From: the human T2T-CHM13v2.0 reference genome, Homo sapiens
NCBI RefSeq assembly: GCF_009914755.1
Contig: NC_060925.1
Direction: 5' to 3' (one strand)
DNA length: 64,000 bases
Made by a program: the position numbers and the translations under genes. Below, piece after piece: positions 5,875 through 27,060 of the stretch (position 1 is the stretch's first letter; each line of letters starts with the position of its first letter). The notes beneath the pieces are model-generated. The model had not been told where the DNA came from. It searched no databases and saw only the letters and a program-made list of their open reading frames with translations.

Positions 5875-6042
5875 CTGATTGTTTTCAGGGCTAAGACGAC
5901 CTCCTGCCCCAGGAGTGCCTGGTATCTTTACCACTGCAGTACTATTGGCCATGGAGCCTTGTGGAGGGGTGCTGGCTGGTTCCGGTTTTATGGATGAGAA
6001 ATTGGAGAGGTTGATTAGGGCTGAGGGGCCAAACTGGTTCAT
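5875..6042 (-). CDS. TAF12: TAF12 exon 2, canonical coding part (MNQFGPSALINLSNFSSIKPEPASTPPQGSMANSTAVVKIPGTPGAGGRLSPENNQ). Second in-frame Met at 5952 is the start of the short TAFII15 form
   Basis: 56 codons matching the TAF12/TAFII20 N-terminus; ATG at 6042; donor CAG|gtatca at 5874. Confidence 0.97.
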
Positions 6043-6126
6043 AATCTGCCGAGCTTTGGACTTCAGCTCATAGAGCTTATCGAGATCCTGTTTCTTTTTG
6101 GAGCTGTGAGGACCAAGGCCAATTAA
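6043..6126 (-). other. TAF12: 5' part of TAF12 exon 2: 84 nt, 28 stop-free codons in frame with the canonical ATG (LIGLGPHSSKKKQDLDKLYELKSKARQI). UTR in the canonical mRNA, coding in N-extended isoforms
   Basis: Acceptor cttttcttctccag|TTAATT (AG at 6128-6127); 84 nt is exactly 28 codons to ATG 6042. Confidence 0.9.
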
Positions 6127-6647
6127 CTGGAGAAGAAAAGCACAAGAATTAGCTCTAGAAGAACCTGTAATAAAGGATGAATCTTGAGAGTAAAAAGAGG
6201 CCTGGTGCAATGGCTCACAACTGTAATCCCAGCACTTTGGGAGGCCCAGGTGGTAGCATCACTTGAGCCCAGTAGTTCAAGACCAGCTTGGGCAACATAG
6301 CGAGACCTAGTCTCTACCAAGAAAAAAAAAAAAAAAAAAAAGTAAGTAAAATGAGGTCTGTTAGACTTTGAGGGTTCTTCAGTATATATGGAATGGTGAC
6401 CATTTAATATCCACAGGTTAAAAATTGAGGGAATGAAGAATGTTTATTACTCTCAGCTGATATTTAGAAACCATCTCATTTCCAAATATTAAGTGAAATA
6501 GTCCACAAAATTTAAACAAGGAAGCAAGTAAATGAAATGAAGAATCTTATGTACAAAAATAAACTAGGGCCGCGTGCAGTAGCTCATGTCTGTAATCCCA
6601 GCATGTTGGGTGCCTGAAGTGGAAGGACCACTTGAGACAGGAGTTCA

Positions 6648-7025
<378 letters not shown>

Positions 7026-7906
7026 TTAGCTGGACATGGTAGCATGTGGTCCTAGCTACTCAGGAGGCTAAGGCAGGAGGATTGCCTGAGCCCAAGAAGT
7101 TGAGGCTGCAATAAGCCATGATCACACCACTACTGCATTCCAGCCTAGGTGACAGAGTGAGACACTATCTAAAAATAAAATGAAATAAAAATAAACTAGA
7201 GGCTGGGCACAGTGGCTCATGCCTGTAATCCCAGCACTTTGGGAGGCCGAGGTGGGTGGATCACCTGAGGTCAGGAGTTTGAGACTAGCCTGACCAACAT
7301 GGAGAAACCCCAACTCTACTAAAAACACAAAATTAGCCGGGCGTGGTGACACACGCCTGTAATCCCAGCTACTTGGGAGGCTAAGGCAGAAGAATTGCTT
7401 GAACTCGGGATGCAGAGGTTGACGAAACTCCATCTCAAATAATAATAAAAATAAATAAATAAATAAATAAATAAACTAGAATAAGCAAGACATTTTTGAG
7501 AACTTTGTAAAAATAGTTAAGTACTACATGCATTATTTTTAAAGTATCAAATAATGTTAAATTCAAATAAGTCATAGCACAATCACATCCTTTAAAAAAA
7601 TCAGTCACAAAGCTTAAGAATACAGACTAGTTCATTCTGGCATTTCAAACATGCTTAAGTCTATGTCAGGGCTATGCCCAATAAACATAACTTTTAGCAG
7701 CTGTTAAAAGTAAACTCCTCTTTATCAAGAGCAATTTTTCTCTGAGTGTTAGCAATCTAAGTACATGCAGAGACCCTAGTCTGGAGCAGCTGAGACTCCT
7801 GAATCTTAGAGTCATGAGGCTGACTCTGTGGACGTCAGCTTGGGTGTCATCACGATCAGAAGCACATTCACCAAGTTCTGCTCACAGTAGCCTCAAACTT
7901 ACTTAC

Positions 7907-7978
7907 AGCTATCTGAGTGTCTAGATCTTTAATTACATCAGCAACAGCTGTGAGCCCGGTGAAATGAGAGGCAGCCAT
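7907..7978 (-). CDS. TAF12: Alternative TAF12 coding exon (exon 7907-7991) encoding MAASHFTGLTAVADVIKDLDTQIA
   Basis: catttacag|gtagcttttgaaaATGG (A at -3, G at +4), 24 sense codons, then GCT|gtaagt consensus donor at 7906. Phase 0, so in frame with exon 2; lies in unique, non-repeat sequence. Confidence 0.75.
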
Positions 7979-8412
7979 TTTCAAAAGCTACCTGTAAATG
8001 AACAACTGGCATCAAGCACCATCCTTGCCATGGAACCATTTTAGTTGAATGGCCTGGTACATCTTCACCAACCAGGATCCAAGCAAACTGGATGTGGAGA
8101 AATATATCTCCTTTTCCTTAGTGGGAGCCAAGACAAACATCTCCATCTCTTTCATAAGCAACTTTGAAAATTAATTAATGATGATTATGGCACATATAGA
8201 CCACCTTCTTATAAAATGAATGTCTGCTGTTAGGGATAAACTAACAGCATATGGAATATTTTATTGGGCAAAATTGTGGGATATGAGCCTGCAGGAATTA
8301 TATCAATGGCCTTCAGAACTTGGTAAAAGTTGGCAATATAAATGTCTACTGTATCTATCCTACTCTTGTCCCTAGTCCTGAGTTCCTCCTCACCACACTG
8401 TCTGACTTTCTA

Positions 8413-26365: not shown

Positions 26366-26960
26366 AGGAGCTTGGGTACTCACAGCCCTGTTCCGAGACT
26401 CAGGAACTCGGAGTCTCAAAGCCCGGATCCCGTCCCCAAAGAAGCCCCAGTCTTCACTGCCCGCTTCTGTTCCCTTCCAAACTCAAGTTTTCTCTGTCTG
26501 CTTCTGCCCCTCAGGAACCTAAGTCTTCGCTGCCCCGTTTCTGAATCCTTAGGAGCCCGGGTCTTCACTGTCCCGCTTCTGCCTCTTAGGAGCCCAAGTC
26601 CTCACCGCTCCACTTTTACCTCTCCGGAGCCTGTGTCTTCACGCCCCGTTCCTTTCTGACCCTTTCCTCGTAGGAGTGCGGGTCCTCATAATCCTGCTCC
26701 TCTCAGACCACTTTCCCTCAGATGCCGGAGAACTCGCATCCGTCCCCGTTCCCTAAGTCCCGTCTTGGAGCCCGGGTCCCCACAGCCGCGTCTTCTCCGA
26801 GCCTGATCCTCTCAGTCAGTCCCTTCCCAAGAGCCTGAATCCTCACAGCCCCGTCTCGTCCACAACCTGGTCCTTCGAACACTGACCCACTGTAGGTCTG
26901 GGTCCTGACTCCCTCCTCCCGCTCTTGTTCCTCAACTGCCAGGGCCCAAGACTCACAGGC
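26366..26960. repeat. Degenerate ~37-bp tandem repeat (about 14 units, consensus ~AGGAGCCCRRGTCYTCACNGCCCCGYTTCTG) at the start of TAF12 intron 1
   Basis: Unit starts at ~26366, 26402, 26440, 26477, 26513, 26551, 26588, 26625, 26672, 26766, 26797, 26829, 26894 and 26941; spacing 36-38 bp in the core. Confidence 0.8.
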
Positions 26961-27060
26961 AGCAGCGTCTATCTCCCCATGATATGCAGAGACTGCCCCA
27001 GTGAAGCGTTCGTCTCAGCAGCCGGTCCGACTGCGCGGCCCTCCCCGACTACTTCCGGCA
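26957..27060 (-). other. TAF12: TAF12 non-coding first exon (TSS end approximate)
   Basis: CpG-rich; ends CTGCCT|gtgagt (donor 26956-26951); directly downstream (minus strand) of the ETS/NRF1 promoter motifs. Confidence 0.85.

What the first reader, a model, noticed from the sequence alone, without database searches (positions are those of the whole stretch)
7901..7993. Hidden coding exon in TAF12 intron 1 giving a 52-aa N-terminal extension (213-aa TAF12)
Seen: AG acceptor at 7993-7992, strong Kozak ATG (gaaaATGG) at 7978, 24 sense codons (MAASHFTGLTAVADVIKDLDTQIA) and a consensus GTAAGT donor in phase 0, inside a non-repeat island in an Alu-saturated intron. It is too short for the ORF track. 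Joined to exon 2 it reads MAASHFTGLTAVADVIKDLDTQIALIGLGPHSSKKKQDLDKLYELKSKARQI-MNQF. Inference: the hydrophobic periodicity (V..VI..L..QI and L..LY.L...A..I) suggests a two-helix hairpin module absent from canonical TAFII20/15. This may be the ancestral reason the first 84 nt of exon 2 stay open.
Basis: partly seen in the sequence, partly recalled or inferred. Interest (0 to 1): 0.8.

Follow-up and report, generated by a model that had tools for sequence, protein, structure and literature searches.

The report
Ancient optional N-terminal module of TAF12
A small alternative exon in the first intron of human TAF12, together with the start of exon 2, encodes a 52-residue helical add-on that is conserved from corals to mammals but is missing from the standard 161-residue protein used in all TFIID and SAGA studies.

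Summary
On the minus strand there is an AG at 7993-7992, the exon 7991-7907, an in-frame TAG at 7990-7988 and an ATG at 7978 in a strong context. Twenty-four codons follow, then a GTAAGT donor in phase 0. The first 84 nt of exon 2 are open into the known ATG at 6042.

The pattern alone is not beyond chance: shuffled introns give about one such candidate. Conservation is what makes it real. Predicted TAF12 proteins of mammals, birds, reptiles, frogs, sturgeon, sharks, lampreys and hagfish start with the same 52 residues. Human is 52/52 identical to macaque, capuchin, goat and ground squirrel.

A profile of the module also finds it at the N-terminus of TAF12 in amphioxus, tunicates, hemichordates, echinoderms, molluscs, a brachiopod, an annelid and cnidarians. 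AlphaFold2 predicts two helices, 12-26 and 33-56, at pLDDT about 80.

No Pfam family, solved structure or searched paper covers the module. The exon is not "hidden": RefSeq lists it, and "isoform X1" models exist in many species. Its function and its use in human tissues remain untested.

The parts
7992..7993 (-). Acceptor AG of the cassette exon. The pyrimidine tract before it is weak (12 of 20).
   Evidence: Exon 2's acceptor has 18 of 20 pyrimidines.
7907..7991 (-). Cassette exon of 85 nt, lying between exon 1 and exon 2 of TAF12.
   Evidence: The bounds equal those of the RefSeq alternative exon (hub table). It is single-copy in the genome.
7988..7990 (-). In-frame TAG upstream of the start. 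It closes the frame coming from exon 1.
7976..7978 (-). Start codon of the long form, in the context gaaaATGG.
7907..7978 (-). 24 codons: a variable head (residues 1-9) and helix 1 (residues 12-24) of the module.
7901..7906 (-). Donor GTAAGT, in phase 0.
6043..6126 (-). First 84 nt of exon 2. Annotated as 5'UTR in the selected transcript. It carries 28 codons: the end of helix 1, the G-x-G-P-H turn and helix 2.
6040..6042 (-). Known start codon (MNQF) of the 161-aa form. It is an internal Met in the long form.
5875..6042 (-). Known coding part of exon 2. AlphaFold2 pairs its first residues (ALINL, long-form 59-63) as a short strand with residues 9-11.
26957..27032 (-). Exon 1 (5'UTR), with a 3-codon upstream reading frame (ATG 26980, MGR, TAG 26971-26969). 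The stop lies 25 nt of mRNA before ATG 7978 when the cassette exon is included, and 96 nt before ATG 6042 when it is skipped.
   Evidence: The distances were counted from the sequence.

Best explanation
Exon 7907-7991 is a genuine and very old protein-coding exon of TAF12. When it is spliced between exon 1 and exon 2, its ATG (7978) opens a frame that runs through the first 84 nt of exon 2 into the known protein. This adds 52 residues and gives 213 aa.

These residues form a helix, G-x-G-P-H turn, helix hairpin. The hairpin sits at the N-terminus of TAF12 in cnidarians, lophotrochozoans, echinoderms, hemichordates, amphioxus, tunicates and all vertebrate classes sampled except teleosts. A variable low-complexity stretch of about 60-290 residues, measured from the module's end to the histone fold's second helix, joins it to the histone fold.

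The long form is therefore the ancestral one. In jawed vertebrates a Met just after helix 2, together with skipping of the cassette exon, yields the truncated 161-aa 'TAFII20' that became the reference protein.

Shown: the sequence, the frame, the conservation and the predicted helices.

Inferred: the hairpin is a tethered docking module for another TFIID or SAGA subunit, or for a regulator. TRRAP is one candidate, by analogy with the yeast Taf12 N-terminus that binds Tra1. The long and short forms would then differ in that contact.
For: Sequence and frame.

Vertebrate orthologues starting with the same extension:
- squirrel P0025, a cluster of 243 member sequences
- bilby P0033
- duck P0050, a cluster of 89 member sequences
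- cobra P0084
- frogs P0110-P0113 and P0271
- sturgeon P0090
- sharks P0065, P0067 and P0069
- lampreys P0106-P0108
- hagfish P0292 and P0307

Of the 117 proteins stored (the query P0001 among them), 42 hold the cassette-exon motif, 73 the exon-2 5' motif, and 39 hold both.

Identity, squirrel to lamprey: 12/15 in the helix-1 core and 31/52 over the extension, against 16/56 in the known N-terminal tail.

Human is 52/52 identical to macaque, capuchin, goat and ground squirrel.

Lamprey and hagfish have no Met at the place of the known human start.

Invertebrates. The profile search found 2314 proteins, with the best 150 listed. A local profile of the module hit 17 of the 134 new representatives. 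It also hit 40 of 67 further proteins. The named hits include Branchiostoma, Ciona, Styela, Saccoglossus, Ptychodera, Glandiceps, Asterias, Diadema, crinoids, Holothuria, Haliotis, Patella, Gigantopelta, Lingula, Owenia, Nematostella, Actinia and corals.

Structure: helices 12-26 and 33-56, with pLDDT 76-89.

The exon is single-copy in the genome.

Against: - All orthologues are computed gene models. No transcript counts, ribosome footprints or peptides were available to me.
- The selected human transcript skips the exon (hub table).
- The exon's acceptor is weak, with 12/20 pyrimidines against 18/20 for exon 2.
- The 3-codon upstream frame in exon 1 ends only 25 nt before ATG 7978. This may lower initiation there.
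- 0 of 19 teleost-named models carry the module.
- No nucleotide alignments could be made, so synonymous versus non-synonymous change was not measured.
- No partner is known. Neither the profile search nor the fold search of solved structures found a relative of the module.
Confidence: 0.8

Rival explanations
1. The exon is conserved and able to code, but in human it is included so rarely, or translated so poorly, that the 213-aa protein is negligible. On this view it is a relic kept for another lineage or for a narrow tissue such as the germ line.
For: - The selected transcript skips it (hub table).
- Its acceptor is weak, 12/20 pyrimidines against 18/20.
- A strong-context 3-codon upstream frame ends 25 nt before ATG 7978.
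- All 34 PDB entries holding the full-length human TAF12 chain carry the 161-aa form.
- Teleost models lack the module, 0 of 19, so loss is tolerated in one large clade.
Against: 52 of 52 residues are identical between human, macaque, capuchin, goat and ground squirrel. Meanwhile the adjoining known coding part of exon 2 shows 1-2 changes (identities of 98-99% over 84 residues). That is the pattern of ongoing purifying selection in mammals. RefSeq keeps a transcript with this exon (hub table).
Confidence: 0.15
2. The exon is a non-coding 5'UTR exon. Its conservation reflects an RNA-level or DNA-level regulatory element, and the open frame is a by-product.
For: The bare ATG-to-donor pattern is expected about once per shuffled intron. 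The 28 open codons of exon 2 are unremarkable on their own: (61/64)^28 is about 0.26, my arithmetic.
Against: The frame, the start and the splice phase are kept from lamprey to human. Replacements are conservative (I/V, K/R, D/E, T/S). Invertebrate proteins at 18-40% identity keep the same amphipathic helix, G-x-G-P-H/Y, helix pattern. Nucleotide-level conservation cannot explain that.
Confidence: 0.03
3. The extended proteins are an annotation artefact, spread from genome to genome by homology-guided gene prediction.
For: Nearly all are 'isoform X' or 'hypothetical' models. Several models in the lists are plainly faulty, with retained introns or fusions to neighbouring genes, for example P0002, P0056 and P0073.
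Against: A predictor cannot create an open, ATG-started, in-phase frame that is not in the DNA. The frames differ by lineage-specific substitutions. In invertebrates and jawless fish the module is part of the retrieved model. Lamprey and hagfish also lack a Met at the place of the known human start.
Confidence: 0.02

Closest known systems
Human TAF12 forms TAFII20 and TAFII15. The names are recalled; the 161-aa chain is confirmed in PDB.
   Same: Same gene, same histone fold, and a nested set of proteins that differ only at the N-terminus.
   Different: Those two forms start inside the known coding region. The long form needs an extra spliced exon and adds a folded, conserved module rather than more disordered tail.
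'Isoform X1' TAF12 models of about 213 aa in NCBI annotations of other vertebrates (P0025, P0033, P0050, P0065 and others).
   Same: The same extension, residue for residue in mammals. The human exon is their orthologue.
   Different: They are computed models with no described function. The selected human transcript, and every full-length human TAF12 chain in the PDB (34 entries), have the short form.
N-terminal region of yeast Taf12, which binds Tra1 in SAGA (PDB 6t9i; passages of PMC8660637).
   Same: A structured element at the N-terminus of Taf12, joined to the histone fold by a flexible linker. This is a model for how the metazoan hairpin could work.
   Different: No sequence likeness. 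The alignment of the long form to yeast Taf12 starts at residue 47, and fungal-like representatives do not match the module profile (best E 2.7). That paper treats the yeast N-terminus as lacking in human.
TAFH/NHR1 domain of TAF4, the histone-fold partner of TAF12 (passages of PMC6672047).
   Same: A small domain, acquired in animals, carried on a disordered region of one half of the TAF4-TAF12 pair, and used to bind regulators.
   Different: It is a different protein and fold. A link between the TAF12 hairpin and TAFH is only an idea and was not tested.

Membership tests
TAF12 (Pfam PF03847, TFIID_20kDa), N-terminally extended isoform | The exon joins exon 2 in frame, with no stop before the known start. 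| tested here: met
   The donor is in phase 0, and 24 + 28 sense codons follow.
TAF12 (Pfam PF03847, TFIID_20kDa), N-terminally extended isoform | Orthologous extension present in TAF12 of other species, ahead of the histone fold. | tested here: met
   Pfam finds PF03847 downstream in the 5 long-form proteins scanned, and the listings give it precomputed for nearly all the others.
TAF12 (Pfam PF03847, TFIID_20kDa), N-terminally extended isoform | A human transcript contains the exon. | not testable with these tools
   Only the hub table (RefSeq exon 7907-7991 of another transcript). No read data were available here.
TAF12 (Pfam PF03847, TFIID_20kDa), N-terminally extended isoform | The protein is made and enters TFIID or SAGA. 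| not testable with these tools
   No proteomic data. The extension peptides were not found in the full text of the paper library. Supplements were not searched.
Upstream open reading frame or regulatory 5'UTR exon | The upstream frame ends before, or is out of frame with, the main start. | tested here: not met
   It is in frame and open through to ATG 6042.
Exon born from a transposable element (Alu or other repeat) | Many copies in the genome, and young age. | tested here: not met
   1 match in 3.1 Gb. The encoded peptide is kept to lamprey and beyond.
Any described protein domain family (Pfam-A) | A significant match of the 52-residue module to a curated profile. | tested here: not met
   in 5 proteins only histone-fold families pass. 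The N-terminal matches are far below cut-off (E 0.02 or worse); best PDB profile match has E 0.58.

The most novel reading that the evidence does not exclude
The reference human TAF12 is a truncated derivative. The ancestral animal TAF12 carries an N-terminal helical-hairpin docking domain that jawed vertebrates made optional through a cassette exon and a new internal start. The long form gives TFIID and/or SAGA a contact (for example with TRRAP, TAF4-TAFH or an activator) that no structural or biochemical study has seen, because all of them used the 161-aa protein.
Probability: 0.4. Interest if true: 0.8.

Novelty: new variant of a known kind. Interest (0 to 1): 0.62.

Why it matters
TAF12 is a core, double-copy subunit of TFIID and is shared with SAGA. 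The dedicated evolutionary survey of TFIID states that TAF12 "consists of a single HFD" (passage of PMC6672047). [quoted passage not shown] All 34 PDB entries holding the full-length human TAF12 chain carry the 161-aa form.

A second folded module, conserved from corals to man and switched on by one small exon, would be an unexamined handle on TFIID and SAGA assembly or regulation. It would also give a concrete reason to re-search existing proteomic and cryo-EM data.

It is also a clear case of a conserved "5'UTR" that is really coding sequence of another isoform.

Tried and rejected
- Self-association of the module: complex prediction with two copies of residues 1-62 gave no verdict (score 0.13, mark 0.32). 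It counts neither for nor against binding.
- Relatives among solved structures by sequence profile: nothing. The best E was 0.58, to designed three-helix bundles.
- Fold search of the module model in PDB: 0 matches at E <= 0.001. Only generic antiparallel helical hairpins came up.
- ESM Atlas search by features with residues 1-60: no usable hit.
- Pfam: no family on the module.
- Module in fungal-like or other non-animal TAF12 representatives: none above noise (best E 2.7).
- Retrocopies or repeat origin of the exon: none.
- Literature: ten searches found no paper on a long TAF12 isoform or its peptides. One search was badly framed, because TAF12 was not required, and gave nothing useful. A 2026 preprint only says that TAF12 has several annotated alternative isoforms (passage).
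- Earlier findings of this scan were not open.
- Rejected idea: that the hairpin carries the TAF4-TAFH binding motif. That motif is recalled from memory. By eye, the D-V-I-K-D-L-D stretch fails its last hydrophobic position. This was not formally tested.

Full report
**What is in the sequence.**

- an AG at 7993-7992;
- an 85-nt exon from 7991 to 7907;
- an in-frame TAG at 7990-7988;
- an ATG at 7978 with A at -3 and G at +4;
- 24 sense codons;
- a GTAAGT donor at 7906-7901, in phase 0.

Exon 2 begins at 6126 and stays open for 28 codons before the known start at 6042. The exon bounds equal the RefSeq "exon of other transcripts 7907-7991" in the hub table, so the exon is annotated and not hidden. 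The table does not say where that transcript's coding region is set.

Alu-type sequence flanks the island on both sides. The exon has a single match in the 3.1-Gb genome, namely itself.

**Is it more than chance?**

Not by pattern alone. Intron 1 is 20,830 nt and has 7 GTRAGT sites. It holds one candidate with an ATG, at least 20 open codons, an in-phase donor and a nearby AG, and that candidate is this exon. Shuffled introns, however, give 0.985 such candidates on average. Twenty-eight open codons in exon 2 are also unremarkable.

**Conservation in vertebrates.**

I searched with the translation of exon 2 read from its first base (P0001) for longer proteins. This gave 103 hits among 202 candidates. 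Many cover the supposed 5'UTR part at 95-99% identity in mammals, 83-87% in birds and a marsupial, and 74-77% in sharks.

Fetched sequences start with the same extension:
- squirrel P0025, 213 aa, a cluster of 243 member sequences;
- bilby P0033;
- duck P0050;
- cobra P0084;
- frogs P0110-P0113;
- sturgeon P0090;
- sharks P0065, P0067 and P0069;
- lampreys P0106-P0108.

A search with the shark N-terminus gave 44 hits among 48 candidates.

Of the 117 proteins stored at that point, 42 carry the cassette-exon motif, 73 the exon-2 5' motif and 39 both. The rest start at MNQF or at other, often faulty, upstream exons.

Human is 52/52 identical to macaque, capuchin, goat and ground squirrel.

Squirrel against lamprey:

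| Region | Identity |
|---|---|
| Helix-1 core | 12/15 |
| Whole extension | 31/52 (60%) |
| Known N-terminal tail | 16/56 (29%) |
| Histone fold and C-terminus | 89% |

The extension is thus better kept than part of the accepted coding sequence.

Lamprey and hagfish have no Met where the human short form starts.

**Beyond vertebrates.**

A profile of 18 long forms (A1) against 1.84 billion representatives gave 2314 hits, with the best 150 listed. A local profile of the module alone hit 17 of the 134 new representatives.

An alignment of 12 of these (A2) retrieved named proteins: 744 hits, with the best 120 listed. The module profile hit 40 of the 67 new ones. By group, the named hits are:
- hemichordates: Glandiceps, Saccoglossus, Ptychodera;
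- echinoderms: Diadema, Asterias, two crinoids, Holothuria;
- amphioxus;
- tunicates: Ciona, Styela;
- molluscs: Haliotis, Gigantopelta, Patella;
- the brachiopod Lingula;
- the annelid Owenia;
- cnidarians: Nematostella, Actinia and several corals;
- hagfish.

None of the 19 teleost-named models has the module, and neither does the one bichir model.

The shared pattern is an amphipathic helix, a G-x-G-P-H/Y turn, then T/S-P-x-Q and a second helix. A variable stretch of about 60-290 residues runs from the module's end to the histone fold's second helix. Fungal-like representatives do not match (best E 2.7). Arthropods and nematodes were not among the listed hits, so they remain untested.

**Structure.**

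AlphaFold2 on the 213-aa squirrel protein with A1 puts its most confident stretch on the extension: helices 12-26 and 33-56, pLDDT blocks 78-89, whole-model mean 64. The module alone (A4) gives the same helices, mean pLDDT 75 and pTM 0.54. It also shows a short strand 9-11 paired with 61-63, which lies in the first residues of the known protein.

No significant relatives appear by fold, by PDB profile or by Pfam.

**How it most likely works.**

Shown: splicing decides the N-terminus.
- When the exon is included, ATG 7978 is the first start of the frame and 213 aa follow.
- When the exon is skipped, the second-helix codons become 5'UTR and ATG 6042 gives 161 aa.

Inferred:
- The hairpin is a tethered docking module.
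- The long form is ancestral, and the short form is an innovation of jawed vertebrates.

The yeast Taf12 N-terminus binds Tra1 through a flexible linker (passages of PMC8660637). This makes TRRAP one candidate partner, and the TAFH domain of TAF4 is another. Neither was tested.

The weak acceptor (12/20 pyrimidines against 18/20 for exon 2) and the 3-codon upstream frame ending 25 nt before ATG 7978 suggest that the long form is the minor product in human cells.

**What is known.**

All 34 PDB entries holding the full-length human TAF12 chain carry the 161-aa form. The survey of TFIID evolution says that TAF12 consists of a single histone-fold domain (passage). A 2026 preprint notes only that TAF12 has several annotated isoforms (passage). 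Ten literature searches found no study of the long form or its peptides. Supplementary tables, where such peptides might be listed, were not searched.

**Verdict.**

This is a real, ancient coding exon and an undescribed conserved module of a core transcription factor. It is already present in databases as computed isoforms, and its function and its use in human tissues are untested.

Noticed in passing
window 26957-26980 (- strand): The upstream ATG of exon 1 (strong context) is in frame with exon 2 when the two exons are spliced directly. In human it stops after MGR at TAG 26971-26969. The tamarin and rabbit models (P0027, P0028) read MGRQTLLP straight into LIGLGPH, so the stop is a Gln codon there. 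Three near-cognate codons (ACG, CTG, CTG) follow the human stop in frame.
   Followed up: partly
window 6457-6474 (- strand): An ATG reading MVSKYQ lies about 330 nt upstream of exon 2. Marmot, elephant seal and narwhal models (P0016, P0023, P0068) splice this start onto LIGLGPH. In human the base pair after the sixth codon is CT rather than GT, so the donor seems lost.
   Followed up: partly
proteins P0293-P0317, P0118, P0119: None of the 19 teleost-named TAF12 models carries the module, although sturgeon and a partial paddlefish model do. This may be a loss in teleosts or a gap in annotation.
   Followed up: no
proteins P0106-P0108, P0292, P0307: Lampreys and hagfish lack a Met at the place of the human MNQF start. 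The short form as known in human could therefore not start there.
   Followed up: partly
long-form residues 9-11 and 61-63 (window 7946-7954 and 6010-6018, - strand): AlphaFold2 pairs a short strand before helix 1 with the ALINL stretch of the known protein. This hints that the folded unit reaches about 10 residues into the 161-aa form.
   Followed up: no
proteins P0002, P0056, P0057, P0073: Several bird TAF12 models are fused to a discoidin, CUB and LCCL domain protein. These are probably read-through gene-model errors.
   Followed up: no
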